A DNA stretch of 64,000 bases from Yuukianura sp. NJ FZ-2021 (GCA_046563655.1 CM102290.1:6076001-6140000), one strand, 5' to 3'. Counted from the stretch's first letter, positions 5,135 through 22,634 are shown. The notes: generated by a model not told the origin, from the letters alone. Translations and numbers: made by a program.

Positions 5135-5172
5135 AGTTAGTAGTGAATGTCCATTATTAGAAAGTAGGTCAA
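5135..5172 (+). repeat. Left terminal inverted repeat of Polinton B
   Basis: AGTTAGTAGTGAATGTCCATTATTAGAAAGTAGGTCAA is the exact reverse complement of 21601-21638. A second inverted block pairs ~5398-5464 with ~21168-21232. Confidence 0.95.
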
Positions 5173-5670
5173 TTCAAAATAAAACTGTGCTAAATTTTAA
5201 ACTAACTATCGTTTTCCAGCTTTTTTTTCAGTTTCAAATTCAATGCTATGCCTTATACTTTATGTGGCTAAGCTCTTCTTTTGAACAACATTGAATTTGA
5301 AACTGAAAATAACTGGAAAAGGAAAACCTAACCTAATGAACATGGTTCATTCCCATTTGCCATTAAACAAATGACGTTTCTTCAGCACTGAATCTATGAG
5401 ATTTGAACAAAAAGAATTGAGATGGCGCTTGAGTTGGATTTTGCAAAGAACGGGTGGATTCTTCATTTCTGTTTCTTTTCATTTTTTTTCTCAAAAATTG
5501 AAAAACATTTCCAAAGCTGTTTCAAAAGAAAAGCAAACTAATCAGACATGTGCTCCGAGTGAGTATAAAAACTCCTTGAAGCTGTAGAGTTTTTTCAGTT
5601 TGATTCCAGAAAGAGCTTAAAGTTGTTGTTTGTAGGAAGTGCTTCATCGAGCTATTCCATTATTTCAGAA

Positions 5671-6107
5671 ATGTCAAAGGATTCTGCACCTCTCGCTGGT
5701 AAGATTAAAAACTGGCAACACCTGAACTTTGACCTTAGAGATTTCTCTTTTCAGATTGCCCCAACAGACAGGAGAAACCCCTTGCTCAACTCCTAGATGA
5801 GCTCTATCAAGAAGACGAGTACGGGCGTGGCGTTATAAAGCACAACTGCTGGAACCGTGAGGGTCACCGGGACTGCTACTTTTTTGACGCAGAATTCATT
5901 GAAGCAAAAAGAAAGAAAGAGCTGGCAGATGAACTTGCCGCGTATTTCGATGAAGATGAACTGGAAAAGTTCTTGAAAGATATGAAGAGTTGCTCATTAG
6001 GTTGCGGACAAACAGGATTTCAGTGCTCCGAGACTCCGTGCCTTTTGGCAAATTCGCTCGACGACAACGCAGAAGACATTATGGATAGGATTGACTCGAT
6101 AAACTGA
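5671..6107 (+). CDS. Two-exon Cys/His-containing orphan protein, paralog of 12601-13046
   Basis: MSKDSAPLA, then a GT-AG intron at 5699-5754, then DCPNRQEKPLAQLLDEL...KHNCWNREGHRDCYFFD...CSLGCGQTGFQCSETPCLL...stop. TATAAAA at ~5564 and TCAGTT at ~5596 lie upstream. It is missed by the ORF track. Confidence 0.8.
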
Positions 6108-6225
6108 CCCCTGTTTTAGTTTTGAGTTTCATTTATTCTCGAAAATTTGGTTCCAAAAAAATTAAAAAATTATTCTTTTTAAGCAACAAATTGTTTCAAC
6201 AATAGGAAAACTTGGTATTTGGAAT

Positions 6226-6310
6226 AAAAAAAAAGTAGAACCACACGAGATTTGAACCCAAGTCAACAAGAAATTTCAGAACACGCTCATATCATTGAAC
6301 CATTTGTGCC
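6226..6310 (-). ncRNA. Candidate Pol III (A-box/B-box) tRNA-like small RNA
   Basis: On the minus strand: TGGTTCAATGA (6302-6292), GGTTCAAATC (6258-6249), then a T9 run (6234-6226). No convincing full cloverleaf. Confidence 0.35.
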
Positions 6311-6350
6311 GTGTTAAAAATTCATGCAAATTAAATACAGTTGAATGGAA

Positions 6351-6425
6351 CTCTATGACAACTTTTATTAGCAAACCCAAAATTCGTAATCTCTATGACA
6401 ACTTTTATTAGCAAACCCAAAATTC
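6351..6425. repeat. Two-copy 35-bp direct repeat (40-bp period) downstream of the helicase stop
   Basis: CTCTATGACAACTTTTATTAGCAAACCCAAAATTC at 6351 and at 6391. Confidence 0.9.
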
Positions 6426-6446
6426 ATAATGCTACCATAAAACTGT

Positions 6447-8372
6447 TTATTTTAAATCTAAAATTAAATTGAAATTCGTGTTGGTGTTGGCTTCCATGGC
6501 TTCTAGGCGCTGTAATTCCTCCTGCCATTGCCGAATAGCTAGGCTCCTATGTCCCACGACCAGATTTGGACTGAATGGGTGCTGGAACATTAATCCGTCC
6601 AGAGTTGTGACACGACCTAAATTTTAAATTTCATTATTAAGCTTGAAAAAATACGAAAAAAAAATGCAAAAAAAATGTTTCTTACTCATTGCTAAATAAA
6701 CCAACTGTGGCGCTTGACTAGTAAACATTGTTGATGTGTCACCGGGTGCTGGATTCCCCACCACTACCCGTTTGCAAGTTTTGCCCTATAAAGAAAAAAC
6801 AAATGATCAAATGTTTTTAGCATAGTCTTGAGGTAATTCACCTGTGCCTTGTGACATGTCATTCCCCAAGCCAGTTGCAATGGGAATAACTTTCTTTGGT
6901 AAGTTCTTCCCGCATACTTGTCATAGTATGGCATCACGAGCGGAACTATAGGAATATCTCTCCTGAGTGGGTATGGAACGCCAAAATATGTGTCGGGACG
7001 GACGAAAACGAAACTTGGAACTCCGTTTTCGTCTACTTCGGTTGAAATCTGAGTGACTGTGACTAGTGCTCCGTTGTAAAGTCCTGTTTAGAAAAATCAG
7101 AAATTAGTCTTTTTAAAATTAATATGGTTACTATGGTATACCTGCTGCGACAAAAAGATTCTTGGTTAACATGCAGCGGGCTCCAACCGCTAGCTTCAAT
7201 TTGTCGCCAGTCTTTGTCTCATCTCGCATGTCGATGGCGTCCACCTCCGTAATGTCAACGCCCAGCTCCGAAATTCGTTTTCTATTTTTTTTACATTTTT
7301 AATAGTATGCATAAATTCAGTATCTTATAGAGACTTACTCATTGTAACTATTCACGTTGTGATTTTCTGCAAAGAGAACAGGAGCGGAGAGGAAAAGTGA
7401 AAGCTCTTCCGCAGTCAGGACTGAAGAAAGTTGTTCCAAAGACCTCAATTGCAGCGCTTCAATGTCTTGTTCTTCTAGTTTTCCGCACCGTACGCGCGAC
7501 AAAATTTCTTTCAACTTGGCTTGAGACTCGTCTTGCCGCATAATTTCTGTCAGTATTATGCATTTGTTAAAATGCGCGTACGCCTTGATCCCATCCAAGC
7601 ACAAGCCTTCGGCATGCGCAGACTTGTAGTATAAGGGTCGATCTGCCACTGGACTTAGCCTTAAACATCAAACATTATTATTATGAGGTATACACATTTA
7701 AATGTGTAACTTACTGTGCCAGGTCACCCATGGCCAACACCGTTAGACCTCCAAATGGTTCTTGTGTGTGGTTCTCGCTTCTGAAAATTGCCCGAAGTCT
7801 TCGCTCCATGTATCCCAGGAGACCAACCCCGAGCATAAAAACTTCGTCAATTATTAAAAGTCGTACTCCCTTCAGTCTCTCCCTTGGAAATTCGACATAT
7901 TTTTCCGGGTCATGCTTTCGATGACCTAGACTTAATGAGAGGCCGCTGTGAACAGTTATTCCTCCCGCGTTGAATGCCGCTGCACCAGTAAATGCAAAGA
8001 CACGGAAACGAATCTTCCTCTTTTCAAAATAGCCTCTTAAATAGTGTATTATGAAGCTTTTTCCTAAATTTTGAGAACAATAAATAATTTCAAATGAAAT
8101 TTCTAAAGAAATGGCTGTTGCTTGCCTGTCCCAGCCGCGCCGTGGCACAAAATGAATTCCTGGTTACGAGCAGAGAGGGCTTCAGTCACCAGTTTTGCAG
8201 TTTGTCGCTGCTTGGAATTGAGCTGCTCTAGTTCAACGACCGGAAATACTCTGTTGACGGGCTGAGTTTTGCAGTATTCTAAAAACGTTAATGGATTACT
8301 CGGAACCAACTTGTGTACAACGTTTCCGCTTTCTCCTTTCTCCAGCTTTCGTTTGAGTGAACTTTTATCCAT
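6447..8372 (-). CDS. PIF1-family SF1B DNA helicase, 7 exons, apparently intact
   Basis: Introns at 8064-8125 (GC-AG), 7660-7714, 7282-7338, 7084-7141, 6786-6841 and 6617-6685. Splicing restores GAAGTGKS, AFTGAAA, IIDEVFM, GDLAQLSPV, LTEIMRQ, LAVGARCMLTKNL..GLYNG, FPLQLAWGMTCHKAQGKT and YLAMSRV. Confidence 0.92.
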
Positions 8373-8374
8373 CT

Positions 8375-8881
8375 TTACAGTCTGCAACGCTTGATGGACT
8401 TTACGGGCAGACGTGAAGAGTAGAAAACGTTAAAGTTTTTCAAAATTTCTTCTTGAATGTAAGCGGCGTCCAATGCGGTGACTCTTCCAATTTTGAATCT
8501 AAATCCGCCAAACGTAAATGGCTCTTTGCTGCTCCAACGCTGAATACTACACAAAATCTCCACAATACTCAAAGGCTTCGAAGGCTTTGTCGACGGGCAG
8601 ACGTGTTGCGCAAATCCGTCCCACACAATGTCGCAGTTTGTGCACTGCGAGTAGTCTTCCCGAACAATTTTCTCAATGTCTTGGCAGCGCGACTTAGTAA
8701 GTCTGTCTTTGATTACTTTGATTCTGATTGGACTAAATATTTTTACACATTTACAGCAATGATGTGTAGATGAATTCATACTGACTGGCTTAAGAAATTT
8801 TGCAGACTTAAAAACGATTTTAAGGCGGGATTTTATACGACTGTTTTTGATGCTAACGCTGTAGGGGTTACCTTCGGTCAT
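8375..8881 (-). CDS. Hypothetical Cys-rich basic protein (possible Zn-binding)
   Basis: Open 168 codons from the first ATG, with HHCCKC and CTNC...HVC. It ends next to the helicase start. Confidence 0.55.
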   Translation of the reverse strand: MTEGNPYSVSIKNSRIKSRLKIVFKSAKFLKPVSMNSSTHHCCKCVKIFSPIRIKVIKDRLTKSRCQDIEKIVREDYSQCTNCDIVWDGFAQHVCPSTKPSKPLSIVEILCSIQRWSSKEPFTFGGFRFKIGRVTALDAAYIQEEILKNFNVFYSSRLPVKSIKRCRL

Positions 8882-9462
8882 TGAACTGAGCACAAAAGCC
8901 TGGAGGGTAGTAACCAGCCAAAGTTCTTCAACCCTATCGAGGACAATGCAAAATTGCAAAATTGGAGAGTCGTGAAGCGCCGCTTTGTTGTCCGAGATAT
9001 AATTTCGTGATATTCAAATTGCAAGGAGAGAATAACATGAATGGATAATCATTGTTGGAGCTAAGATTCTTCATCCCTAAAGAGCACAATGCCCAGATTA
9101 GGGAGTCGTGACGTGCCGCTTTGTCGGCCTGGAGATAATTTGTTTTGATATTCAAAATTTAACATAATTGAGCAATTGAATTGTATTAAGATGGTAATGA
9201 TCGTATCTCCGACGGAGTGCACTGGCCCTTCCGCAACTGTCTGAAAAAGTCGCCGGTCGTCCGAGGTCAAAAGTTTATCGCCGAAACGGCGTTGGGGGGG
9301 GGAGGTAGGGTGGGGACCAAGCACAGCATTGGATTGGCTAGTTCATGAACCTCAGGGGTCACGCGGGGCTGAAATTTTCCCTTAAAAAGGCCCGGATTCG
9401 AGGTCCAGTCACCAGTACTTTCACAAATTCAAGAACGTCAGCCAAAGTAACGCAGCTCGAAG

Positions 9463-10364
9463 ATGGGAAGCAATAGCGCTGGTTAGTATTTACAATTGAT
9501 ACTAAAGTTTCTTTTTGGAGCTAATTCTTTTAAAATGTTTTCAGAAATTCCAACGCAAAAGGTGGGAGCGTTTAGAAGACGCTTGGACTTTGATGACGCA
9601 GATGAAGCTACACCGGCCGTCAGGAGTCGACGGGCCATTGACTTGTTGACCGGCGTCGCCAATCCGGGTGGCCAGGACGTCGTGGAGGGAAGACCGCCGA
9701 ACACTCCTTTTATTTTCACCGAGGCATTCTCTGGGTTACCGATGAGTTACGTGAAAAAGGCAAAGCAACTGGAGCTTGGGCCAAAGAATGCGCAAGCGTT
9801 CTTTGGTGAATTGGGGCTCGTGGAGAAGTTTGGGACGTCAACAACGTTTTACGCTCGGCTTGGATTTGACCCATTTTCTCAAAGTAAGAAAAAGAATGAT
9901 TAGTTTCAGCTCATATTTTTGACTTTTCGTCTTTTCTTTTTCTTACAGCGATGAAAATTTACATCCAAAAGCTAAATTCTAACCAAAGCCCAACGATTCT
10001 GGGGATCCTATTTCGCGAAATTGGTGTCATCGTTGAACAAATTAAATCTACCTTGGCGGAGATTGACGAGTCGGTGAAAGCTGGCACTCCTTTGTTCAAG
10101 TATGAGGCGGGAACATTGATCGAACCAAAAGAACTCTCATTCTGGACCCATGACGACACCTGGTATAGTGAAACAATGCGGTTCCGGATGCGTTTCATCA
10201 ACGTTCGCCGAGACAGATATTTTTTTTATCTTAATTCTCCCAGCGACAATTCAAAATTTGATGGCTATTTTGGGCCAAAGTTAACGTTTGGCAGAGGTGA
10301 CATTGACGCTTTTGTAAAGACGATGGAAAGCATCATTGCTAAGGTTGACCCTGAAGATTTGTAA
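9463..10364 (+). CDS. Three-exon hypothetical protein (~258 aa)
   Basis: ATG at 9463. Introns 9482-9544 and 9884-9948 (GT-AG) join ORFs 9496-9903 and 9951-10364 in frame. AATAAA at ~10385. Confidence 0.72.
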
Positions 10365-10544
10365 AGAGACAAAAAAAAGTTTTCAATAAATGTGTGGCTA
10401 TCAGCCGCTTTTTCTTCTTCAAGGTTTAAGATGCATTTTTTTTGCTCGTCGTCTACAGTATTTAAAGTCTGTAGTTTCTGCAGTGTTGCATTAGATCAGT
10501 TTTCGCTTTACAGTCTAAAAGTCTCAAAGGAAAAAAAAATAGAA

Positions 10545-10950
10545 ATGGGATCCATAGTTTCGCGTCCTTGTGACCACGAAGACTGGGACGGGTGCTCGTG
10601 CCCCCAGGAGGTCATCTATGATGACCAGAGGACTGGCGGGAACTGGCGGCGGCGCCTAACATTGGAGGCCTTTTTCCGCTACGATTGTTTACGTGCCGCT
10701 TGGCACCACTTCTGGGCAAGACGCCGCGAGATTCCAAACTACTATCTGAAGCCAGAGGAGCCGGGCGCAATGGAACATTTCCTGCACTACCGGAACATGC
10801 ACCGGATAGCGCAGATGGAGCTGATCGAGAAGAGTAAGTTAATAATTCAATAATTATCTAAACCGAAATTAATTTGGAATAATATTTTTTGTCTTTTCAG
10901 TTATATTCAATGCAAATGACGCAGATCTTCGACAGCGGAGACTTCTTTAA
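10545..10950 (+). CDS. Two-exon small protein with an N-myristoylation-like start (MGSIVS)
   Basis: ATG at 10545 downstream of TATTTAAA and TCAGTT. Intron 10834-10900, then an in-frame last exon IIFNANDADLRQRRLL*. Contains CDHEDWDGCSC. Confidence 0.65.
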
Positions 10951-11393: not shown

Positions 11394-12332
11394 TCAGATT
11401 TCAGACTGATCAGCCCCAAATTTCTTTTCATCGTTAATTTCATAAGTCTCATACACAGTATGTGGTCCACAATATCCTCCAGGGAAGCGGAATATTTCTG
11501 TCATTGTTAGGACTTCAGCGTGGGGTCCATCTTCACCCTCAACTGGCCACTTTGTATAATCCATAGAGTGCTTGTCTCGAATCACTAGGCATGTCGTACC
11601 TTTATCTTCATAGAGTTTGATTTTGGGTAGGTCGCTGACCCCCCCACCGCCCTGAAGAAAGAGTTGATACAGCTTCCCATTAAGTCTGGGAACCATTTCA
11701 AAATCCACCATGGCTGCAGTGCCGTGTTGTCCGATCCGGAGTAATTTGGAGACCTTTTGATCTTTGAGTAGTAAAGAACAGTCCAAACTGTCTTGATGAG
11801 TGATGCTTACTTCGTGTACTGTTTCCGCCTCATTTTTCTTATTTCCCAATTTCATTATTCTCTCCGCTAGATGCGTATTATACAGCGTAACTGTTCCGCG
11901 ATACCACCTTGGAGGGCAGGGAGGGTTTTGGGTCAGTGATCGGAGTTCAGTGCTTTGTCCATCTTCGGCGTATACAACATTCGTCCACTCCTTGACGTCC
12001 GTAATATCCTTCTGTTGAATCACAACGCGAACCAAACCGCGGTTGTCAGTAATTTTTATTTTCGGCAGTTCGTCGACTCGCCCACCACCATGAAGAAATA
12101 GCTTGAAAAGCTTCCCAATGAGTCTCGGAATCATTTCGAAATCCACAGTGACTGCTGTACCGTGTTGTTCGATCCGGAGTACTGTTGGAATTGGACGATA
12201 AGTTATTAGAGAGCAATCCAAAGTTTCCGGATGATTGATACACCATTTTGTCACTACTTAGTATTCCCCACTCGCCCTTTCAGGACAAGAGGTATATCTA
12301 AACCAAGTAGCTATCTTTGAGCTTTCTTCCAT
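11394..12332 (-). pseudogene. Orphan protein made of two tandem ~145-aa repeats, with an early nonsense codon
   Basis: LDCSL..LRIxQHGTA..VDFEMxPRLxGKL..LFLxGGGxVxxLPKIK occurs twice. An ATG at 12332 is in frame, but codon 25 is TAA. Confidence 0.65.
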
Positions 12333-12600
12333 TGTTTTACAAGTCTTTAGATTTTTGTGTCTGACTTGAGTTGTGAGTGAGCAAAATGAGGCTGAGCGCC
12401 AGAGAACACGGTCAATTTATACCCCGTTCTCTCGGTGTGAACGACTCATGGAAGGGAAGATGGAGCATTCGCCGTGGGGAGTCATTGACCTTTCCGCATT
12501 TTCTCAAAAACGTTTGTGCTCATTTTGATTGGGTATATAAAGCGGTAAAAACTTGGAAAGATGATTATTCCTTTTTTAGGCTCAGTGATTTCAAAATTGT

Positions 12601-13046
12601 GCACCTCTGGCGGGTAAAATTTCATAAATGTCAGTTTTTGAACTTTGACCTTAAGTTTCTCTTTGTACCTAGATTGCCCAAACAGACAGGAAAAGCCATT
12701 GGCTGAACTTTTGGACGAGCTTGCCGAAGTGGATCCTGTCATACTCCAACTTGGCAGGGCTGTGCTGAAACATAGCTGCTGGAACCGCTGGGATCACCGT
12801 GACTGCTACGTCTACGATGCAGAAATTAACAAAGACAAGACAATAAATGAACTGGCAGCGGATCACTCGGCCTATGTTCGGGAAGGAGACTTGGAAGAGT
12901 TCATGAAGGACATGAAGTGTCACTTGGTACTATCCGAACCGTGTATCTTGGGCTGTGGACGAACCGGATCACAGTGTTTTGAAAATCCGTGCTTCTTGGT
13001 AAAGTCAATGGACTGGGACGACGACGACGCTATGGATACCAACTGA
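12601..13046 (+). CDS. Orphan Cys/His protein, paralog of 5671-6107 (start unclear)
   Basis: Same APLA|DCPNRQEKPLA junction with an intron at the same position (~12614-12672). Contains KHSCWNRWDHRDCY and CILGCGRTGSQCFENPCFL. Confidence 0.7.
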
Positions 13047-13177
13047 CCCCTGACTCTTAAGCTTAAATAATTCTCAAAAATTCGGTCGTTTTTTAAATAA
13101 ATTTGGTAAAAAGTCACACTCAGCCGGCAGTCGCCGTCATACACTGTTTTGTATAATTTCTTCCGTAGGTTCTTAGC

Positions 13178-14343
13178 ATGTCTGAAAGACAAATAAAGTC
13201 AGCCTATTTGAATAAAAAAGCAGTTGGAAGCTTTTCTGGTTTTCCGTCATTCTTAAAGTCGTCAGGTTTTTTAGACAAAGAGAAGGTCAAGCAAGCTTTG
13301 TCCGGAGTTCCTGCATATTCTTTACACAGGCCGCAAAGAAAGCCAAGGACCAGGCCAGTATTAACGTTTTTTCCTTATATGACATTTGGAGTGGACCTTT
13401 TACAGTTGGACAAAAAGTCTGCCAAAAAAGAAAAGATTGGCTTCATTCTCATCTGCATGGACTTGTTTAGCCGCTTTGTGTGGACAGAGTTCTGTGTCAA
13501 CAAGACAGCACGGGTCGTTCTAGAAGCCATAAAGAAAGTTTTCAAAAAAGCTGGGGTAAATGTCTTCTTTTCTCTCTCATGTCCATTTAAAGTTTATCAT
13601 TTTTTTTCTCAGCATCTCCCGCATTTCTTGGCTTCTGATTTTGGCAAAGAATTCAAGAATAAAAGCCTTTTGAAATATTTGGAAGCCAATGACATTCACA
13701 GCTATTCCCCGAGAACTGCGAGAAAAGTTTCACAAGTAGAACGTGTAATTCAAACGTTAAGAAGAAACTTGACCCGGGCTCAATTTGCAAATCCAAAGTC
13801 TTCTATGAAAACTCTATGGCCGGACATTGTCTCAAATTACAATAAAACGGTGCATTCAACTCTGAAAATGACCCCCACAGAGGCTATTGACCCCAAAAAC
13901 AAAACCACGGTTTTTATAAACGTGTACGACAAACTGATAAATTCCAAACCCGAGAAGCCAAAATTCAAGGTATTGAGTTGATGCTAAACATTCACTTTGT
14001 CTCATTAAAACATAGTCTTTTTCTTCAGGTGGGTCAGCTCGTGAGGGTCGCTAGAAAGCGGCTAACTTTTGAAAAAGCTTCAACGTCACAATCGTACTCT
14101 ACGGAAGTCTTTAGGTAAAGAAGCATATTCGCCCTGTTTTGGAATGTATGCCAAGCGTTTCTTTTTTTTATAGGATTAGAAAGGCAATCAGCGCCGTGCC
14201 TCCCTTTTACTATCTTGAGACGCTAAAAAAGGAGGAGATTAAAGGTAATCGTTTTAGACGGATTTTGCCAGTTGACAAAGCCACATCCAATTCTTTTTTT
14301 AGGGAGTTTCTTAAACGAAGATCTGACCCCAGTGACCGCATAA
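13178..14343 (+). CDS. Polinton retroviral-like (rve, DDE) integrase, 5 exons
   Basis: GVDLL / SDFGKEF / VERVIQTL catalytic triad and YNKTVHSTLKMTP. Introns at 13556-13612, 13970-14028, 14115-14173 and 14245-14302 restore KFKVGQLVRV..FEK..EVFRI..YYL..IKGSFLNEDL, the typical Polinton integrase C-terminus. Confidence 0.93.
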
Positions 14344-14344
14344 A

Positions 14345-15445
14345 ATGTACCCGTTTTCGCGCTTCGTGACTCTAGGTTCTACTTCATTTCCCTCATTCTT
14401 CCCATCTAATAATACAAGTTCTTTTCGAAATAAGCTTTTGGACAATATTCCTTTGCACAAAAATCTCCCGCTAGAAGTTGCAGTGTGTAATTTGTGGTAC
14501 CCCGCAACGCCAGACACTGGAAAGTATACGATTTTTGGCCATGAACCCGACGACAATGTCGTTTCCGTGGTTCAGCGCTTTGAATCGAGCATGGAAGTGT
14601 TTCGAGCCAAAGGTGAAAGTTATATTGAAACAATGAACAAATGCAATACGAATTTTGCAATATTCAACAACAAGCTGACATTCCTATTGGAAGTAGAAGA
14701 AGGAAAGGACTTTTTAATATTTCGCAACAATGACACTGGCTACGACGTGAAGATTCCAGAAGTCTATGCGCGTGCTCTCGGATTTACAAAAAATGTGTTT
14801 GGCCAAGGTGAAACCGATGCCCCGTCGTCTCCAAGCCAAGCAGCGTTGGACGCAATTGACATTTCAGAGCCGCTAAAGTTTACTGTTTTTCGTGAAGTCA
14901 GTTCTACCGTAAAGGTCAATGAACCCAAGGTCAAGGCTGTCGAAGGCATAGTTAGTGAAATCAACGTTGCTTTGAAACAGTTGGGAATTACATTTTCCTA
15001 CGACGAAAGCAAGCTCAGCGTCAACGGTGTCTCCGGAAGAGGCTATAGGGTTCGTCTCTCGGAATTTCTAGAAAAAACTTTTGGCCTCAAAACTCCATGT
15101 TGGTTTAGCTACAGCAATACTTCATTCCCGACAATCGCCAACATTGACCTGGATATACATCACAACAATGTGATTGTGCTCTGCGATGCTGTTAAACCAC
15201 AGGAATTCAAATCCAAGGCAGTTCGGCACATGAGCATTTTACCAAGGCGAGATTTGAAAAAAGAGGAAGGAGCTAGAATTATACACGAAACCCCACGGCC
15301 ATTGCTGTATTTTCCTGTTGACATGGACCGGAAGGAAATTAATGAAATTGGAATCGATCTTGTTTTTGAAAATATGGAACCAATCCCTCAAGCTAACGAT
15401 TTATATTCTGCCGTCGTACTTCATTTTCAAAATAAAACTTTGTGA
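14345..15445 (+). CDS. Minor capsid protein (penton, PZ), intronless
   Basis: N-terminal FVTLxS..FPSNNTSSFRNKL..LEVAVCNLWYP and C-terminal VLCDAV..LYFPV..INEIGI..VVLHF match my recollection of Polinton pentons. The position between integrase and MCP fits. Confidence 0.82.
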   Translation: MYPFSRFVTLGSTSFPSFFPSNNTSSFRNKLLDNIPLHKNLPLEVAVCNLWYPATPDTGKYTIFGHEPDDNVVSVVQRFESSMEVFRAKGESYIETMNKCNTNFAIFNNKLTFLLEVEEGKDFLIFRNNDTGYDVKIPEVYARALGFTKNVFGQGETDAPSSPSQAALDAIDISEPLKFTVFREVSSTVKVNEPKVKAVEGIVSEINVALKQLGITFSYDESKLSVNGVSGRGYRVRLSEFLEKTFGLKTPCWFSYSNTSFPTIANIDLDIHHNNVIVLCDAVKPQEFKSKAVRHMSILPRRDLKKEEGARIIHETPRPLLYFPVDMDRKEINEIGIDLVFENMEPIPQANDLYSAVVLHFQNKTL

Positions 15446-15511
15446 AACCAATATAAATAATCTGCTCCATTAGTTAGTCGTCATTTGACTTTCGTCGGAT
15501 CCACAGGCCAC

Positions 15512-15868
15512 ATGCTTGAAGTTGTGTGTGAAGGTGAAAGTTGTAAGCTTTTAAAAAGAATGGACGGAGAAAAGACTCGTCAGGTTGGGTATGGGGCATT
15601 GACCTCGGTAGTTTTACCAAATTCAATTCTATTTCAGAGTGTGAAAAAGGCTAAAAAGGGTAAAAAGAACGGTGCTTCAGAAATGACAGGAGAAGGAAGA
15701 AAAAAATCCAAAGGTCGCAAAAAGACGGGAGCTGCTAAAAGAAAGGGAAAAGCACCACAAAAGAAAGTCTCCGCGGTGGAAACTTCTGCTTCTAAAAAGA
15801 AAACTCCTAAAAAGAAAAAGATGGGCTGTGGACCAACGAAACAAGCCAAGCCAAAATCGTTTAAATAG
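15512..15868 (+). CDS. Lys-rich basic protein, putative DNA-condensing core protein
   Basis: Very K-rich C-terminal half with xGxG motifs (QVGYG, MTGEG, KMGCG) resembling maturation-protease sites. It lies between penton and MCP. Confidence 0.6.
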   Translation: MLEVVCEGESCKLLKRMDGEKTRQVGYGALTSVVLPNSILFQSVKKAKKGKKNGASEMTGEGRKKSKGRKKTGAAKRKGKAPQKKVSAVETSASKKKTPKKKKMGCGPTKQAKPKSFK

Positions 15869-15929
15869 AAGAACCATTTACAAGATTCCTCAGTCTTCAG
15901 TCCAGCGTTAGTCGGTAGTCAGTCTCAAG

Positions 15930-17231
15930 ATGGCTTCAGTAAACACGCTTCCGGGTACAAAGCCCAATTACGTCTCCCAACTCGATCTATTTTCAGTTCC
16001 CCCGACTGACATTAGTGTGCAGCAAACAGAGTTCATCAAGATTATTCCAGTGAATACTGTAAAAGAAAATCCTCAAATCACATTCAACATTGGGCAGTTT
16101 CAATTTCCGCCAAACGTTTACTTGGATTTCTCATCTTCATACCTATACCTAAAATGTAAAGTTCTCACTGCAAGTGGAGAAACGCTTCCGGACACTGCCG
16201 ACGTTGCTATTAGCAACATGATGTTCTACACAATCTTTGACTCCTGCACGGTCACGGTAGGTGGCGTCCAAATGAGTGAGTACCCACAAAGTTACAGTTA
16301 CAGAGGAATTCTGTCGCATCTCCTGGGCTACAGTCAAGAACTCAAAGCGAGCCTCCTGTCATCAATTGCCTACTACCCAGATTCCAAACAGGATGTCTTT
16401 GACGCAACAAACACTGGATATACGAAACGAAAAGCAATGTGTGCCGGGTCAAAGACCTTTGATTTGTTTGGAAAAATTTCATGTTCATTGTGTGAACTCC
16501 AACGATGGATTCCTTCGGGACTAAAAATTGAACTTACACTGACTAAAAACTCCGCCCCTTTCTGCTTGGACACGCCCACCGACACAAAGTATACGTATTC
16601 CATTGAAGATGCCGTCTTTCATCTCAAGGCACATACAATTAGCCCTCGAATCTACTCTAACCATCAGCAACTATTCAACCATGGAAAAAAAGCAATCTAC
16701 AGTTACCGAGAAATTGAAATTGAAAGAAACACAATCGCTTCCGGAACTGTCAGCTTCACCTCGGATCGACTTTTTCTTCGCAGGATGCCTACGATTGTTG
16801 CAATTGCCTTGGTTAAATCAAAAGCGTTTCGAGGAAACTACAAGAATAGCGCACAGAATTTTGCCGACTTTGGTACAACTTCAATCAGCGTCAGGACCGA
16901 AGAATTTGTTCCATTTTACAGAGAACTTGTCTGTAATTACGCTGCAAACCTGTACATGGAACCATTCGTGGCTCTATTTGATACACTCGGTTCTTTTGGA
17001 AACGGAATTTCCCGCGAGAATTTCAAACTTGGCAACGCCGTCTACCTTTTCCAACTTTCTGAAGCTGCAGTTTCCAACAATGACCTCCTTCCTGCTCGCG
17101 AAGGACCAGTCCGTGTAACTGCAGTCTTTGCTGAAGCCCTGAACGAGCCAGTCGAGTTGATTGTGCTGGGAACTTTTCAAAACGTTTTAACAATTGACAA
17201 AAACAGAAACGCACAAGTTCTTAAAACTTGA
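15930..17231 (+). CDS. Major capsid protein (double jelly-roll, PY), intact and intronless
   Basis: 433 aa with SQLDLFSVPPTDISV, YLDFSSSYLYLKCKV, YSYRGIL..LLGYS, WIPSGLKIELTL and AFRGNYKNSAQNF, which are Polinton MCP motifs. Confidence 0.93.
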   Translation: MASVNTLPGTKPNYVSQLDLFSVPPTDISVQQTEFIKIIPVNTVKENPQITFNIGQFQFPPNVYLDFSSSYLYLKCKVLTASGETLPDTADVAISNMMFYTIFDSCTVTVGGVQMSEYPQSYSYRGILSHLLGYSQELKASLLSSIAYYPDSKQDVFDATNTGYTKRKAMCAGSKTFDLFGKISCSLCELQRWIPSGLKIELTLTKNSAPFCLDTPTDTKYTYSIEDAVFHLKAHTISPRIYSNHQQLFNHGKKAIYSYREIEIERNTIASGTVSFTSDRLFLRRMPTIVAIALVKSKAFRGNYKNSAQNFADFGTTSISVRTEEFVPFYRELVCNYAANLYMEPFVALFDTLGSFGNGISRENFKLGNAVYLFQLSEAAVSNNDLLPAREGPVRVTAVFAEALNEPVELIVLGTFQNVLTIDKNRNAQVLKT

Positions 17232-17233
17232 GG

Positions 17234-17818
17234 ATGAACGGAGCGGAACTGGAGGAAGCGATGGCGTGTATAAAAGAGTGCTCTGACCCGAAAATTCGAA
17301 CTTTTGTTAGTTCTAATGATGGAATTAGCCTTCTAAACCCACGCCCTCCATTCTGTTGTATACAAAATACCGGCTTAACTTCTTCTCCAGGTAAATGCTT
17401 GAGGTAAAAAAATATGGAAACGCAAGAGATTTATTTTTTGTTTTAATTTAGGAATCCATTGGGTTCTCTGGGCGCACTTGGAGCAAGGCCGGTTGGTTTT
17501 TTTGACAGTTTTGGGAAATTGCCTAGCGATTACAACCTATCTCTTCCTTACGGCCCATGCACTACAATCTCGGAATGGAACACTAAAAAACTACAAAAGG
17601 ATGACAGTGCAACGTGCGGCATGTTCTGCTTAAAAGTCTTTCAAGAGTTGAGCAGCGGAAAAGATTTGTGTAGTTCTTTACGTATATTTAGTCCTAAAAA
17701 TTTAAACAAAAACGAAAAAATTGTACATGATTTTTATAACAGTTTAGGCATCTGTACGAATAGGGGTCACTCAGGGTCATCCCAGGCATGCTTTTCTTAT
17801 TGCGATTGGTTAAAATAA
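17234..17818 (+). CDS. Adenain-like cysteine maturation protease, 2 exons, one frameshift in a T run
   Basis: QNT..SSPG, then intron 17391-17451, then IHWV; FFDSFG; LQ....TCG. The HW and FDSFG frames join if the T7 run at 17497-17503 is T8 (mutation or sequencing error). Confidence 0.87.
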
Positions 17819-17913
17819 TTTTTTTACGGTAAATAAAATATAAATTCCTACAATTTCTCGACGATTGTTTCAGTATTCATTTCACTCATTTTGAGTCAAC
17901 AAGTAGTGTAAAA

Positions 17914-18449
17914 ATGGCTCTCTGTAGTTTCCTCGTGTTGTGTTTACTAATCTCAGCGTCATCAGGCAAGTAACCAATTTCCTTCTCCAAGGTCATTTTT
18001 TGTGATTCTTTTCTTTTTGGAAGCAGGAGAGCAAAAAACTCTCCAAGAACGCTGTAGGAACTGCATCTCTGGCGGTCATGTATTTATCAAAGGATGGCAT
18101 TTCAATTCGATTCAAAACTTTTTTTTGCACAAATGACTTGACCCGGAACCTCCCGGGAACACTCATAATGGGCGCAACTAATGTCACGGCCAATTGCGAT
18201 TCGCACAAGCAAGATACGGATGGAATCGTGTATGGAACGTTGTTTGCTGATAATATCAGCAATGGGACGGCGCTAAAAGACATTTCGAATTTATTGAGAG
18301 CAATGACCGGCTGCAAGAAGCAACAAAAATACGAACCCGCCTCCCAACTTCCAGTATTACAAGCTATTCTGGGTATGACGCTACACCTTATAGTTTGGTC
18401 GCCTATATACATTAATTGTTTTATTCATCCACAGCCTTGTCCTGCGTGA
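17914..18449 (+). CDS. Possible secreted or membrane glycoprotein (gene model uncertain)
   Basis: Signal-like first exon MALCSFLVLCLLISASS and a probable intron ~17966-18026. The downstream ORF has NVT, NIS and NGT sequons and a hydrophobic C-terminus. Joining them needs a frameshift at the T8 run near 18119. Confidence 0.4.
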
Positions 18450-18648
18450 CTTTTGCCGCCGCCGTCGCAAACGTCTTGGGGTGGAGTTTGGGAGGTCAGT
18501 GCCATGGTAGCCAATCCCGCGGGACATTCGGCAGCGTATTTAACGTCGCCCTCCGTCGATCCCCCCGTCAGTCCGAAGTTTGAGCTTGGGAATAGCTTTA
18601 GCAAACTTTTCAGTTTAGTTTTTAAAACAGTACTAGTGTTTGAATAAA

Positions 18649-20465
18649 ATGAGTTTTCCAAATAAACGGGCAGCTGAGGTAAAAAAATATTCTAAGTCAT
18701 CTTAGTATTGTTGTTTCACAAAAAATTTTATTTGTAGTTTAGTTGCGGTTATCAAAGTGCTACGTTGCACTGCACTTTCAAATGCACGACCTACAAGGCC
18801 ATGGCTATCCATGTGGAAACTGTAAGACATTACTTTTAGTACAGGCATGCGGAAAGATGTGAAACTTTCACTTTTGATGCAGGTACATAGCTGTAATTCT
18901 TGTGGAGGGTACTTTGATGAGGCTAGTCTTCACCGTCCAATCTGTCCTCAGAGAGGCATGGGCCGTACAGCGAACAATGACCTCGCTACTGCGGACATTC
19001 GTCCTTTCAAAGAAATCCGGCATGCTCTAAAGGGGACTTTGAAGTTGTTTTCTGCACCCGTTGAGCCACCCACCGAATGTCAAGTACTCTCGGTTTTTGA
19101 AAACCTCGACTTTCCCATCAGGAAGCTGCTGAAGTCAGTGATTGGGCAGTTCAGCGGAGTCAAAGTCAACTTTACTTTAATTGCTGACATGATTGAGGTC
19201 ACACACAATGTCATTCACCTCGGAGACGCCATCGGAGCACCCTTCATGCCCTCTCTCATCCAGACTTCATTTCAAGGGTGGTTACAAACTCTTGTGTATA
19301 CATCATCAACGCCCTCAACTTATACCTAGAAAACGGAAGCAATTGGCAGATTCTGCGGCTACGTTCTCTCCACATTGGTATTGGTCAGTGGAATCCAGTT
19401 GTTCGGGGGCGGGGCTACATTCCGATTCCAAAGGAATTGGCTCGCAGGCGCGGACTGCTGTCGATAAATACCAATTCCAACTGCTTTCAATTGAGCGTAC
19501 TATGTGCACTATACGAAGATGAAATTTTGGAGTTGGGAACAATGAAGCGTCACTGTCTTGGGCTCAAGGATCACCAAAAGTCAAAAGTTGAGAGAGCAAT
19601 TTTGGAAAAAACAGCAAGTTATGAAGCCTTCTTGGAGAGAATGGATTTGAGCTTTCTCCCGCACCCTGACGTTTCTCTTTTGGACATTGACTTGGTAGAA
19701 GAGAAATTCTCAGACCTTAGCATCACCGTGTATGGAAACCAGGGGCCAGAAATTGTTCTATGTAGGGCACCTCAAACTGAGAGGGCAAATCACGTCAATC
19801 TCCTACTAATCAAGCACCCAGAGCGAGAAGAACATCACTATGTTTGCATTAGGGACATTTCGGCACTCCTCGGAAAAAATGGCCACCATAAGCATCAGTT
19901 TTGTCCCGTGTGTCAAAAACGTTTTGACTCGAGGCCTTGGTCCTCCGTAAACCATACTTGTGGTGAAAACTCTGTAAAAGTAAAAGTTCCTACGAATGAT
20001 ATTGTGAAATTTCGAAAGTTTGATGCCCTCCTGAAAGCTCCTTACATTTTCTTCTACAAATTTTTCTACATCTCTGTTCAAACTCCGATGACCATTGGAC
20101 AAGAATGTATCAGTGTCACAGAAAAGGTTCCAATTGGCTTCAGTCTACTGAGTGTATGTGAAACAGGCCACGTAGACCGCCACTCTTACATTGGAAAAGA
20201 TTGTGTGGATGTTTTCTTTAAAACTGCAATGGAAATGGCGAAAATGAAGCTAGACGAAATTAAATTTACAAACAACATGCTCCCCATGACCGAGGAACAA
20301 GAAAGGCTTTTTCTAAAGGCAACAAATTGTGAAATTTGTGGAAAGCAATTCAACGACGATTCCGTGCTTAAGGCTTACCACCATAACCATTTCACATTTA
20401 ATAAATCTGTTATTAAGTGGGCTTGCTACTGGCCATTGCAGCCTATATGGTCACTCGTATCGTGA
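18649..20465 (+). pseudogene. Protein-primed DNA polymerase B, N-terminal part only (Zn finger, terminal-protein region, vOTU-like, start of EndoVII-like)
   Basis: Introns at 18679-18737 and 18822-18882. Motifs NGSNW..WNPVVRGRGYIPIPKEL..INTNSNCFQLSVL..VNLLLI..HYVCI and CEICGKQF..YHHNHFT. Frameshift near 19270. Similarity stops at ~20400, and no polymerase core follows. Confidence 0.85.
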
Positions 20466-20611
20466 GGCGCCGTCGACGACCAAGGCCCCTTAGTGACCAA
20501 CTCCAGAGGGGCGAAGCTGCTCTTCAAATGCAGGCTTTCACTACACATGAAAGCTCACTTTAGGACTTGACCAACATACAGAAATTAGAGTCCAAATTTC
20601 CCATAAGTCAC

Positions 20612-20716
20612 TGTGAGGTGCAACTTGCACCTCACACAAAAACCAAGTTGATGTACTCTGTAGTAGTCTTTAAAATTCTCCCATAAGCTTCTGTGAGGTG
20701 CAACTTGCACCTCACA
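20612..20716. repeat. Two copies of the 25-bp palindrome TGTGAGGTGCAA-C-TTGCACCTCACA, 80 bp apart
   Basis: Copies at 20612-20636 and 20692-20716, each preceded by TCCCATAAG. Confidence 0.92.
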
Positions 20717-21306
20717 CAACTCCACATCTCCTTCTCATTCCATCATTCTCTTTCACCTGAGTTTATTTTTTACTATTTTAGCTCACCCAATTCCCTTCCC
20801 TTTGCCGTAAAAATGGTTTTACTTCTTTTATTTTACAACAATTTTACAACTTTTTGTCATAGAAAACCTCAGAATAATAAATAAAATTAATTACAAAATT
20901 TCACAAGCTGGTAAAGAGTGCATTAAGTTATTTGTAGTGCTTGCAGTATAAGTCAAGGCACAAAATTATAAGCGAACAGCACATTTACCGGGATTTTTTA
21001 TGAGTTTTTTTTTTCTTCGACGACGATGTCTTGATTTTTCCAAAAACAACAGAACCTAATGTTTTTATCAATGATTTGTTTTGGTTTGTTTTTTTTTGTC
21101 AACAACAACTATGGAAATGTTTTTCAATGGTTGACAAACAAAAAAAATGAAAAGAAACGGAGAGAAAGAAGTCATCCGTTCTTTGAAAAATCCAACTCAA
21201 GCGCCATCTCAATTCTTTTTGTTGAAATCTCAAAACAAACAAAATGTAAACTCAACTTGCACGTATGAAGTTCACAGCCCACTTTTTTTTTAAAACTTTC
21301 AGCACT

Positions 21307-21394
21307 GCCATTGTGGTTAGTTGGTGTAGAGATACAGTCAACAAGATAGAGAGAGGAAAAGACGCGAGTTCGAATCTCGGATTATTTTTTTTTT
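21307..21394 (+). ncRNA. Candidate Pol III (A-box/B-box) tRNA-like small RNA
   Basis: TGGTTAGTTGG (21314-21324), a T-arm hairpin CGAG-TTCGAAT-CTCG (21365-21379) and a T10 run (21385-21394). Confidence 0.45.
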
Positions 21395-21600
21395 GTATAA
21401 CACATTTAAAATTAAATTTAATTTAAATGTTAACTACAAATAATATTTAACTAAATTAAACAAATTATTCTTTATTAATTTATTTATTTATTTTTTTAAT
21501 ACCTTGTAAATTTCTGTTTCACACCACCACATGCCTCCCAAGGGTAAATAATTCTGAGCGGGGTGAACGGACAGGGGCTGGGGGGTGTGGGGAGGGGGGC

Positions 21601-21638
21601 TTGACCTACTTTCTAATAATGGACATTCACTACTAACT
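21601..21638 (-). repeat. Right terminal inverted repeat of Polinton B
   Basis: Reverse complement of 5135-5172, followed by the TSD TTTAAA at 21639-21644. Confidence 0.95.
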
Positions 21639-22519: not shown

Positions 22520-22634
22520 CAGTACTCATGCCCTAACCTAGGCGTAGTACCTGAATAAAGTAATACATCGACTTCACAAATGTGGGTCGATAGGTTAATC
22601 TTGGAAATCCAACACATGGATTTGAATTAATTTC

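What the first reader, a model, noticed from the sequence alone, without database searches (positions are those of the whole stretch)
5135..21638. Intron-rich Polinton-like virus with host-sized spliceosomal introns
Seen: at least 18 introns of 55-69 nt can be placed, and removing them restores conserved motifs or open frames (helicase 6, integrase 4, pPolB 2, protease 1, orphan genes 5 or more). The element still has perfect termini and a TSD and landed in a young nested site, so it was mobile while carrying introns. Known: most described Polintons have mainly intronless genes, and spliced ones are easily missed by ORF-based surveys. Inference: this is a lineage adapted to host nuclear splicing.
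Basis: partly seen in the sequence, partly recalled or inferred. Interest (0 to 1): 0.85.

Follow-up and report, generated by a model that had tools for sequence, protein, structure and literature searches.

The report
Intron-bearing Polinton, cut-down copy
This is a virus-like jumping gene (a Polinton/Maverick) in an animal genome whose integrase, helicase, protease and several small genes are split by about twenty very short introns, which is unusual for this group, although the copy seen here has lost half of its DNA polymerase.

Summary
Window 5135-21638 is a Polinton/Maverick. It has perfect 38-bp terminal inverted repeats and a 6-bp TTTAAA target duplication. Contigs of two public runs join the flanks exactly without it.

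I placed 20 candidate introns of 55-69 nt (median 59), with 27.8% GC against 41.1% for the element. Intronless homologues confirm 12 of them:
- helicase: 6
- integrase: 4
- protease: 1
- pPolB N-terminus: 1

Once spliced, the helicase reads as 522 open codons and the integrase as 310. Each aligns to its homologues as a single stretch across the junctions. Contigs of sister copies from two organism labels, down to about 90% identity, keep the introns.

The capsid genes and the body of pPolB have no intron.

- pPolB stops at 20396 and lacks its polymerase domain; 9 of 9 full-length homologues match only its first 500-583 residues.
- pPolB has a frame break near 19245, and the protease has one near 17497.
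- No packaging ATPase was found.

No RNA data could be obtained, so splicing is inferred. Host intron size could not be tested.

Verdict: a real, multicopy, intron-bearing Polinton family, a new variant of a known kind. Interest is moderate.

The parts
5129..5134 (.). left target-site duplication TTTAAA
   Evidence: 6 letters shared at the empty-site joint
5135..5172 (.). left terminal inverted repeat, 38 bp
   Evidence: 100% complementary to 21601-21638
5671..6107 (+). gene A (small Cys-rich protein, no known family), one intron 5699-5754 (56 nt)
   Evidence: 19 of 5044 background pairs score as high
6447..8372 (-). PIF1-family SF1B helicase gene, seven exons. Introns: 8064-8125 (GC-AG, 62 nt), 7660-7714 (55), 7282-7338 (57), 7084-7141 (58), 6786-6841 (56), 6617-6685 (69)
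   Evidence: Pfam PIF1 profile 1-36 and 32-151 in successive frames, Pif1_2B; PDB Pif1 5ftb residues 36-145; junction peptides restore GTGKS, GDLAQLSPV, HKAQG and YLAMSRV; the spliced frame of 522 codons aligns in one stretch to 7 of 7 homologues
8378..9013 (-). 212-codon open frame upstream of the helicase, Cys-rich, no family; its link to the helicase is unresolved
9463..10364 (+). gene B (no known family), introns 9482-9544 (63 nt) and 9884-9948 (65 nt)
10545..10950 (+). gene C (no known family), intron 10834-10900 (67 nt)
   Evidence: no background pair scores as high
11397..12257 (-). gene D, 287 codons, internally duplicated, no intron, no known family
12589..13046 (+). gene A', paralogue of gene A, with the homologous intron 12614-12672 (59 nt); no start codon in the matching frame in this copy
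   Evidence: the two introns share 15 identical letters
13178..14343 (+). rve integrase with C-terminal SH3/chromo-like part, five exons. Introns: 13556-13612 (57), 13970-14028 (59), 14115-14173 (59), 14245-14302 (58)
   Evidence: Pfam rve, weak; P0007 (rve+chromo, one ORF) is contiguous across all four
14345..15445 (+). 366-codon ORF, probable minor capsid (penton) protein, no intron
   Evidence: Atlas leads only: DUF5901 and a Sputnik V18/19 cluster, scores 0.96-0.97; position next to the MCP
15461..15868 (+). Lys/Arg-rich basic protein ORF, no intron; same position as the basic ORF upstream of the MCP in L001
15930..17231 (+). major capsid protein, double jelly roll, no intron
   Evidence: model pLDDT 73.6; Foldseek against viral models gives 155 matches at E<=0.001, including NCLDV, virophage, adintovirus and adomavirus capsid proteins; best E 3e-23
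17234..17818 (+). cysteine protease, intron 17391-17451 (61 nt); frame break in a T-run near 17497
   Evidence: read with X at the break: aligns to L001 protease 1-166, E 5e-16, with the GxHWVLW and TCGxxCL stretches; length difference at 17496 in sister contigs (table 4)
17914..18583 (+). small gene with signal-peptide-like start and hydrophobic tail. Second intron 18373-18434 (62 nt). First intron ambiguous: 17970-18031 or GC-AG 17966-18026
18649..20396 (+). protein-primed DNA polymerase B, N-terminal part only. Introns 18679-18737 (59) and 18822-18882 (61). Frame break at about 19245-19251. Homology ends at 20396
   Evidence: sister contigs run on unlike the window after 20396 (table 7)
20397..21600 (.). 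right non-coding end region, with subterminal inverted repeats to 5397-5521
21601..21638 (.). right terminal inverted repeat
21639..21644 (.). right target-site duplication TTTAAA

Best explanation
The element is one copy of a recently active, multicopy Polinton/Maverick family of an animal genome. Its non-capsid genes carry short (55-69 nt), AT-rich spliceosomal introns.

Shown:
- The element has the Polinton ends and genes.
- The intervening pieces sit where intronless relatives are uninterrupted.
- Removing them gives long open frames with all helicase and integrase motifs.
- Sister copies keep them.

Inferred:
- The genes are transcribed in the nucleus by the host and spliced by the host spliceosome to yield integrase, PIF1-type helicase, protease and the accessory proteins.
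- Because the element moves as DNA, the introns travel with every new copy.

The introns are lineage-specific. The related contig L001 and protein P0007 lack them.

The copy in the window is an internally deleted derivative. It lacks the polymerase domain of pPolB and any packaging ATPase, so it cannot replicate itself. If it moved in that state, it relied on full-length relatives. Sister contigs do continue the polymerase gene beyond the deletion point.
For: - TIR and TSD, and an empty-site joint of exactly element plus 6 bp in 6 contigs of 2 runs.
- Gene content: rve, pPolB N-terminal part (1421 hits at E<=0.001), double jelly-roll MCP, protease, PIF1 helicase.
- Introns: 20 candidates, 55-69 nt, GC 27.8% against 41.1%.
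- Helicase: 522 open codons. One stretch crosses junctions 1-6 in 6 of 7 homologues, E 1e-26 to 4e-33, against 4e-15 to 7e-13 for the best single exon.
- Integrase: 310 codons, one stretch, E 1.4e-46. A 21-residue gap in P0007 lies exactly over 13556-13612.
- Protease and pPolB intron 2 are crossed by the uninterrupted L001 genes.
- Leave-one-out scores of 10 of the 12 checked introns lie within the best 65 of 5044 background pairs.
- Sister contigs bridge introns without loss: X1 records 2, 3, 7; X2 12, 15, 16; X3 17, 18, 20, 23, 24; X4 25, 26, 30. Identity goes down to about 90% (X1 record 2: 48 differences in 479). None of the 15 listed joints equals an intron.
- Multicopy: 543, 529, 113 and 185 contigs were laid in X1-X4.
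- Deletion: 9 of 9 full-length pPolBs match only residues up to 500-583. There are loose ends at 20396 in X1 (2 contigs) and X4 record 31.
Against: - There is no RNA evidence at all. No listed run is RNA.
- Two leave-one-out scores are mediocre: HELc has 293 and POL2 has 167 background pairs scoring as high.
- Of the eight introns that no homologue can check (the seven orphan-gene introns plus POL1), SP1 scores poorly (1585 background pairs as high). A' has no start codon in frame.
- Frame breaks in the protease and pPolB, and the truncated pPolB, show that this copy is not under full selection.
- Only 15 of 20 joints and 32 of about 1400 contig pieces were listed, so an intronless copy among the unlisted ones cannot be excluded.
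- The runs are contigs, and three of the four come from one sample.
Confidence: 0.78

Rival explanations
1. The intron-rich genes (integrase, PIF1 helicase, small accessory genes) were captured with their introns from the host or from other resident transposons. The truly viral genes stayed intronless. On this reading the element is a mosaic, not a virus lineage that gained introns.
For: - Introns are very unevenly spread. There are none in the MCP, the putative penton, the basic protein, gene D and the pPolB body (about 4.8 kb of coding sequence). There are 10 in about 2.5 kb of integrase plus helicase.
- The PIF1 helicase of Polinton-2 of Hydra falls inside the cellular PIF1 clade (PMC5499653, passages).
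- Ginger1 transposases, relatives of this integrase, have 1-4 introns (PMC2836005, passages).
- Cargo genes with introns are known in Caenorhabditis Mavericks (preprint 10.1101/2022.07.12.499685, passages).
Against: - The protease and the N-terminus of pPolB, both hallmark genes, also carry introns at places where L001 is uninterrupted.
- The only close integrase relative found, P0007, is an uninterrupted rve+chromo protein.
- No host or transposon gene with the same intron positions was found, but no host genome could be searched.
Confidence: 0.12
2. The intervening pieces are not spliced. The element is a dead copy, and the pieces are insertions or decay that happen to be bounded by GT and AG.
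For: The copy has two frame breaks and a large deletion. GT/GC..AG pairs of 50-75 nt are plentiful, with 5044 in the element. No RNA data exist.
Against: - All 12 pieces that could be checked against homologues have GT/GC-AG ends and lie within 55-69 nt.
- They are AT-rich.
- They leave 522 and 310 codons without a single stop.
- They are kept in copies about 10% diverged.
- They share no sequence family. Only the paralogous A/A' pair and short low-complexity matches were found.
Confidence: 0.05
3. The frame breaks, and perhaps the truncation, are errors of the assembly and not features of the copy. If so, the locus could be a more intact element than it looks.
For: At the T-run near 17496, all contigs of X1 (3), X2 (1) and X3 (1) differ in length from the window by one letter. 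The X4 contig agrees with the window (table 4). X1, X2 and X4 are one sample.
Against: - The pPolB break at about 19245 is not in a long homopolymer.
- The deletion at 20396 removes about 700 codons, and the perfect right TIR follows in the same contig.
- Contigs are collapsed over many copies, so they cannot be assigned to this locus.
Confidence: 0.3

Closest known systems
Polintons/Mavericks of animals (vertebrate and Caenorhabditis elements)
   Same: TIRs, 6-bp TSD, rve integrase, protein-primed PolB, double jelly-roll capsid protein, cysteine protease and a size of 15-20 kb. Cargo genes with introns are known in Caenorhabditis Mavericks.
   Different: - Intact vertebrate elements have eight intronless ORFs, 'in agreement with Kapitonov and Jurka 2006' (PMC8097293, passages).
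- Caenorhabditis core genes are called intronless.
- Here the integrase, protease and pPolB N-terminus are split.
- This copy lacks the ATPase and the polymerase domain.
Polinton-2 of Hydra magnipapillata (Polinton with a PIF1-clade helicase)
   Same: A bona fide Polinton that also carries an SF1B helicase of the PIF1 clade, not a Tlr1-like helicase-polymerase fusion (PMC5499653, passages).
   Different: In Hydra the helicase gene lies immediately upstream of pPolB. Here it lies about 10 kb away on the other strand. The passages read do not mention introns. No sequence comparison was possible.
Maverick-polinton-like proviruses of dinoflagellates carrying introners
   Same: Polinton-type elements that contain spliceosomal introns (PMC11957031, abstract and passages).
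   Different: Those introns are copies of transposable 'introner' families and were mostly gained after integration. Here the introns share no sequence family, are only 55-69 nt, and are kept across sister copies.
Ginger1 DNA transposons
   Same: An integrase-type transposase gene interrupted by 1-4 short introns, including a GC-AG one (PMC2836005, passages).
   Different: These are cut-and-paste elements of 3-7 kb with no polymerase and no capsid genes.
Metagenome contig L001 (closest relative found)
   Same: Same gene order of basic protein, MCP, protease and pPolB. The MCP is 31% identical.
   Different: The protease and the first 548 codons of pPolB are single open frames with no intron. 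The host is unknown and the contig is only 4797 bp.

Membership tests
Polinton/Maverick | Terminal inverted repeats | tested here: met
   38 bp, 100%
Polinton/Maverick | 6-bp target-site duplication | tested here: met
   TTTAAA on both sides; empty-site joint with 6 shared letters
Polinton/Maverick | Retrovirus-like (rve) integrase | tested here: met
   Pfam rve is weak, E 3.7e-4, below the cut-off. The spliced protein aligns to the rve+chromo protein P0007 at E 1.4e-46.
Polinton/Maverick | [quoted passage not shown] | tested here: inconclusive
   The N-terminal roughly 500 residues are present: 1421 relatives at E<=0.001, and full-length ones are 1203-1299 aa. The polymerase domain is absent from this copy; 9 of 9 full-length homologues match only up to residues 500-583. 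Sister contigs continue past the cut.
Polinton/Maverick | Double jelly-roll major capsid protein | tested here: met
   AlphaFold model pLDDT 73.6, pTM 0.77; 155 Foldseek matches at E<=0.001 to viral capsid proteins
Polinton/Maverick | Minor capsid (penton) protein | tested here: inconclusive
   Language-model look-alikes only, including a Sputnik V18/19 cluster at 0.96. No Pfam hit. Not folded.
Polinton/Maverick | Adenovirus-type cysteine protease | tested here: inconclusive
   No Pfam hit. Aligns over its full length to the L001 protease, with His- and Cys-containing stretches. The frame is broken near 17497.
Polinton/Maverick | FtsK/A32-type packaging ATPase | tested here: not met
   No Pfam ATPase other than the helicase, among the 21 ORFs scanned from within the element, most of 100 codons or more. 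No Walker A pattern in any of the six frames. An ATPase may lie in the deleted part.
Polinton-like viruses (PLV) / Tlr1 | No pPolB and no rve integrase; a Tlr1-like helicase fused to an inactivated polymerase, or a primase-helicase, instead | tested here: not met
   pPolB N-terminus and rve are present. The helicase matches Pfam PIF1 and PDB Pif1. The definition is taken from the abstract of PMC5499653.
PIF1-family SF1B helicase | Helicase motifs I to VI in order, and a 2B domain | tested here: met
   Pfam PIF1 and Pif1_2B_dom pieces in order. Junction peptides restore the motifs. One stretch aligns to 7 of 7 PIF1-family proteins.
Spliceosomal introns | GT/GC-AG ends, a pyrimidine-rich 3' end and a narrow length class | tested here: met
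   19 GT-AG, 1 GC-AG, 55-69 nt
Spliceosomal introns | Removal from RNA | not testable with these tools
   No RNA run listed
Introners (intron-generating transposons) | Introns are copies of one or a few sequence families | tested here: not met
   Among the 20 introns, only the paralogous A/A' pair (15 nt) and matches of 12-17 nt of low complexity were found

The most novel reading that the evidence does not exclude
The family runs two expression programmes in one genome. The first is an intron-rich set of genes for life as a nuclear transposon (integrase, helicase, protease, accessory genes). Their splicing marks the transcripts as 'self' and shields them from host surveillance of intronless foreign genes. 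The second is an intron-free capsid module, plus the polymerase body, kept in the compact viral state. If this is so, intron gain is an adaptive counter-defence of an integrating DNA virus, and ORF-based surveys systematically miss such lineages. As a hint, 8 of 40 pPolB relatives in which the motif was found end shortly after one conserved motif.
Probability: 0.15. Interest if true: 0.8.

Novelty: new variant of a known kind. Interest (0 to 1): 0.5.

Why it matters
Surveys of Polintons, Mavericks and related endogenous viruses usually call genes with prokaryote-type ORF finders, on the stated ground that such elements 'do not contain introns' (PMC10120064, passage). They also define intact elements by intronless ORFs (PMC8097293).

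A multicopy animal family whose integrase, helicase and protease can only be read after splicing would be scored as degraded or missed.

The find also gives a concrete case for asking how and why an integrating DNA virus gains host-type introns, and why its capsid genes did not.

Tried and rejected
- RNA evidence: no RNA holder listed.
- Whole genome: none held, so no sister loci, host intron lengths or full-length copy could be read.
- Host introns within the window: the only host-like gene, a matrixin-hemopexin, is two abutting open frames with no intron, so 'host-sized' stays untested.
- Relatives in viral contigs: 5 pattern matches, none confirmed.
With 3 sequences it returned one locus, L001.
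- tRNA and Rfam scans found nothing.
- Earlier findings of this scan: nothing.
- The Protein Atlas on the matrixin gave Metazoa-wide clusters only, so no host clade.
- My first consensus scan for introns was too strict and missed most helicase introns. My first join script had a frame bug (corrected).
- A second intron in the pPolB body near 19245 was rejected. Homologue coordinates are contiguous with no DNA gap (P0008 1-56 and 57-328), so it is a frame break.
- Direct tblastn of distant PIF1 proteins found only 2-4 colinear exon matches per protein, hence the spliced comparison.
- Literature: Kapitonov & Jurka 2006 and Krupovic & Koonin 2015 are not held. Whether they list intron-bearing Polintons (for example in Repbase entries) could not be checked.
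- Literature searches found no paper describing spliceosomal introns in core Polinton genes of animals. PMC4028283 has no occurrence of intron, splic or exon.


Full report
**What is there**

Window 5135-21638 is bounded by perfect 38-bp inverted repeats. Outside them the palindromic hexamer TTTAAA occurs on both sides (arms 5129-5172 and 21601-21644, 44 nt, 100%; read directly). Further subterminal inverted repeats (5397-5521 against 21104-21232, 85-90%) follow inside.

When the contigs of four public DNA runs were laid on 5000-21800, three contigs of X1 and three of X2 joined 5128 directly to 21639. They skip 16510 bases, and 6 letters fit on either side (table 5). That is the uninterrupted target with a single TTTAAA, so the ends and the 6-bp duplication are confirmed independently of the window. 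X3 and X4 show no such joint.

The target is a BEL/Pao-type retrotransposon on the minus strand. A Retrotrans_gag ORF lies at 21641-22525. RT plus Peptidase_A17 lies at 2808-4436, with integrase parts at 1277-2454.

**Gene content**

- **Integrase and helicase.** Pfam finds a weak rve match in 13169-13981 and a PIF1 helicase match in 7711-8163 on the minus strand.
- **Major capsid protein.** The 433-codon ORF 15930-17228 has only 6 relatives in the word-indexed search, the best at 31% identity. Its AlphaFold model (pLDDT 73.6, pTM 0.77) matches double jelly-roll capsid proteins of giant viruses, virophages, adintoviruses and adomaviruses. There are 155 matches at E<=0.001. The best, at 3e-23, is an uncharacterised protein of a bracovirus record.
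- **Other capsid-module ORFs.** The ORF before it (14345-15442) has language-model look-alikes among a Sputnik minor-capsid cluster and DUF5901. This is a lead only. Between the two lies a Lys/Arg-rich ORF.
- **pPolB.** The ORF 19197-20462 found 1421 proteins at E<=0.001. The full-length ones are pPolBs of 1203-1299 residues.
- **Closest relative.** A 4797-bp metagenome contig, L001, has the same order of basic protein, MCP, protease and pPolB, all as single open frames.

The element is therefore a Polinton/Maverick proper, not a 'Polinton-like virus', which by definition lacks pPolB and rve (PMC5499653, abstract). A PIF1-clade helicase in a bona fide Polinton has a precedent in Polinton-2 of Hydra (same paper, passages).

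**The introns**

Reading the frames on both strands and enumerating all frame-keeping GT/GC..AG joins, I placed 20 candidate introns.

| Gene | Introns (window coordinates) |
|---|---|
| Helicase (minus strand) | 8064-8125, 7660-7714, 7282-7338, 7084-7141, 6786-6841, 6617-6685 |
| Integrase | 13556-13612, 13970-14028, 14115-14173, 14245-14302 |
| Protease | 17391-17451 |
| pPolB | 18679-18737, 18822-18882 |
| Gene A | 5699-5754 |
| Gene A' | 12614-12672 |
| Gene B | 9482-9544, 9884-9948 |
| Gene C | 10834-10900 |
| Signal-peptide gene | 17970-18031 (ambiguous), 18373-18434 |

Lengths are 55-69 nt with a median of 59. Nineteen are GT-AG and one is GC-AG. GC is 27.8% against 41.1% for the element. 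They do not form a sequence family. Only the paralogous A/A' pair and low-complexity matches of 12-17 nt were found, so they are not introner copies.

**Are they more than chance?**

GT/GC..AG pairs of 50-75 nt are plentiful, with 5044 in the element on both strands. 'Can be placed' therefore proves nothing by itself. Homology is the test.

- **Helicase.**
  - Successive frames hit Pfam PIF1 profile positions 1-36 and 32-151 and then Pif1_2B. The second exon matches solved Bacteroides Pif1 residues 36-145 and stops exactly at the donor.
  - The junction peptides restore GTGK|S, GDLAQ|LSPV, HKAQ|GKT and YLAM|SRV.
  - Joined in a script, the seven exons give 522 codons without a stop.
  - They align as a single BLASTP stretch to 7 of 7 PIF1-family proteins. 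In 6 of the 7 the stretch covers all six junctions, at E 7e-26 to 4e-33. The seventh covers four.
  - The best unspliced exon gives 4e-15 to 7e-13.
- **Integrase.**
  - P0007 is a 321-residue rve+chromo protein from one ORF.
  - It aligns with a 21-residue gap exactly over 13556-13612. The alignment then continues in two other frames at 14026-14112 and 14169-14246.
  - The spliced protein is 310 codons. It gives one stretch covering all four junctions, at E 1.4e-46 against 6.5e-32 unspliced.
- **Protease.**
  - After the intron the frame reads G-I-H-W-V-L-W, matching G-N-H-W-V-L-W of L001.
  - Read through with X at a later frame break, it aligns to L001 protease residues 1-166 at E 5e-16. Without that, only residues 81-170 align.
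- **pPolB N-terminus.** The three-exon model has 159 open codons. The alignment crosses the second junction in 8 of 16 subjects (best P0017, E 1.2e-16) and the first junction in only 2 of 16.

So 12 introns are confirmed by uninterrupted relatives and one is borderline.

A splice-site and composition score was trained on those 12. In leave-one-out, 10 of the 12 fall within the best 65 of 5044 background pairs; HELc and POL2 rank lower, at 293 and 167. Among the untested ones:
- C, POL1, B1, A and A' fall within the best 40.
- B0 and SP2 are at 134 and 167.
- SP1 is poor, at 1585.

Most top background pairs are alternative ends of the same introns, or lie in the AT-rich non-coding termini.

**Sister copies**

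laid 543, 529, 113 and 185 contigs (X1-X4) at 88-100% identity. X1, X2 and X4 are one sample of organism A, and X3 is organism B. In X1 the contigs split into 193 at 99% or more, 160 at 95-99%, 156 at 90-95% and 34 below. This is a multicopy family with near-identical members.

Listed pieces that bridge introns have about the same length as the window span, so they keep the introns:

| Record | Span | Differences |
|---|---|---|
| X1 record 2 | 6881-7360 | 48 in 479 |
| X1 record 7 | 14061-14537 | |
| X2 record 12 | 7979-8548 | |
| X2 record 15 | 17214-17627 | |
| X3 record 17 | 6715-7317 | |
| X3 record 18 | 7630-8725 | |
| X3 record 23 | 16260-18440 | |
| X3 record 24 | 18411-19687 | |
| X4 records 25, 26 and 30 | | |

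None of the 15 listed joints equals an intron. The nearest is a skip of 8061-8120, which is not the 8064-8125 intron and may be a replacement. Five joints and about 1400 pieces were not listed.

1. **Truncated polymerase.**
   - All 9 full-length pPolBs match the window only up to their residues 500-583, ending at 20384-20426. Nothing matches their remaining 700 or so residues anywhere in the 64 kb.
   - The homology stops inside the conserved HH.H..G...C..CN stretch seen in relatives.
   - Two X1 contigs and X4 record 31 run on after 20396 with letters unlike the window (tables 7 and 8). Read by eye in frame, these continue that motif.
   - So full-length relatives exist, and this copy is an internal deletion derivative.
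2. **Frame break in pPolB.** The frame change at about 19245-19251 is not an intron. Homologue coordinates are contiguous (P0008 1-56 then 57-328; L001 22-151 then 153-522) with no DNA between.
3. **Frame break in the protease.** It lies in a T-run near 17497. There, all contigs of X1 (3), X2 (1) and X3 (1) differ from the window in length by one letter. The X4 contig agrees with the window (table 4). The break may be private to this copy, or it may be an assembly error.
4. **No packaging ATPase.** None was found by Pfam among the 21 ORFs scanned from within the element, most of 100 codons or more, and there is no Walker A pattern in any frame.

**How it most likely works**

Shown: a DNA element with Polinton ends and genes, present in many copies, whose non-capsid genes can be read only after removing short GT-AG segments that relatives lack.

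Inferred: the genes are transcribed in the nucleus and spliced by the host. The integrase, with a full-length polymerase supplied by intact relatives, moves the element as DNA. The introns are therefore inherited by every copy.

The introns are lineage-specific relative to L001 and P0007.

Their distribution is uneven. There are none in the MCP, the putative penton, the basic protein, gene D and the pPolB body (about 4.8 kb). There are ten in about 2.5 kb of integrase plus helicase. With 20 introns in roughly 11 kb of coding sequence, a uniform spread would leave 4.8 kb empty with a probability of about 2e-4. This is my arithmetic on the coordinates.

That unevenness is the main support for the rival view that the intron-rich genes were captured with their introns. 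It also supports the bolder idea of two expression programmes.

**Comparison with what is known**

- Intact vertebrate Mavericks have intronless ORFs, 'in agreement with Kapitonov and Jurka (2006)' (PMC8097293, passages).
- In Caenorhabditis the core genes are intronless, and only cargo genes have introns (preprint 10.1101/2022.07.12.499685, passages).
- A large survey of protist endogenous viruses used a prokaryotic gene caller because these elements 'do not contain introns' (PMC10120064, passage).
- Dinoflagellate Maverick-like proviruses contain introners, which are transposable introns mostly gained after integration (PMC11957031, abstract and passages).
- Introns in DNA-transposon genes as such are ordinary, for example in Ginger1 (PMC2836005, passages).
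- From recall, relatives such as adenoviruses use splicing.

Searches found no description of an animal Polinton with spliceosomal introns in its integrase, protease or polymerase. The founding paper and the main review are not held, and Repbase entries could not be seen, so priority cannot be excluded.

**Verdict**

This is a new variant of a known kind: a real, multicopy, intron-bearing Polinton family, seen here as a defective copy.

Splicing itself and the match to host intron size remain untested.

Interest is moderate (0.5). The finding bears on how such elements are surveyed and on intron gain in integrating DNA viruses, but the mechanism is unsurprising for a nuclear DNA element.

Noticed in passing
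window 35600-64000: About 50 head-to-tail units of a 564-bp satellite (some units are 544-549 bp), 87-100% alike. It fills the right 28 kb of the window. TRF missed it because its period exceeds 500.
   Followed up: partly
window 208-453 (+), 29310-29962 (+), 30585-30743 (+): Fragments of other, distant Polinton capsid and protease genes, about 27% amino-acid identity to the element's MCP. The 29.3-30.0 kb piece changes frame between two matches, so it looks decayed.
   Followed up: partly
window 22638-24053 (-): The matrixin (Peptidase_M10) plus hemopexin coding sequence lies in two abutting open frames (Pfam profile 2-92 and 96-158) separated by a single stop codon, with no intron. It looks like a retrocopy or pseudogene, next to the retrotransposon gag.
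   Followed up: no
window 1277-4436 (-), 21641-22525 (-), 27215-28989 (-): These are BEL/Pao-type retrotransposon parts: RT plus Peptidase_A17, integrase and DUF5641, a Retrotrans_gag ORF directly right of the Polinton, and a separate DUF1759 gag with an aspartyl protease. The Polinton sits inside the first of these elements. Contigs of X1 and X2 show the same retrotransposon uninterrupted.
   Followed up: partly
proteins P0010, P0013, P0037, P0041, P0048, P0083, P0124, P0129, P0014: Of the 40 pPolB relatives in which the C..C...HH.H motif was found (150 were examined), 8 end within 45 residues after it, with tails that lose homology. P0014 has an extra stretch of about 24 residues right after it. 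These may be gene calls that ran into introns, which would mean other Polinton lineages are spliced too.
   Followed up: partly
window 5671-6107 and 12589-13046: Two paralogous small Cys-rich genes (DCPNRQEKPL...) lie in one element, each with an intron at the same place. The inner one has no start codon in frame in this copy.
   Followed up: partly
window 6351-6430: A 40-bp unit is present twice in tandem. One X4 contig has it once (joint 6351 to 6392).
   Followed up: no
window 9463 and 10545: Genes B and C both begin Met-Gly-Ser. From recall, not from a call, this resembles an N-myristoylation start.
   Followed up: no
window 6236-6300 and 21340-21380: Short tRNA T-arm-like strings (GTTCRAATCTCG) lie in opposite orientation in the two subterminal regions. 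ARAGORN calls no tRNA there.
   Followed up: no
window 8064-8125 and 17966-18026: GC-AG intron candidates with a good GCAAG donor. The first is needed to restore the helicase Walker A motif. The second is an alternative for the first intron of the signal-peptide gene, but it would need a frame change in a T-run near 18117-18125.
   Followed up: partly
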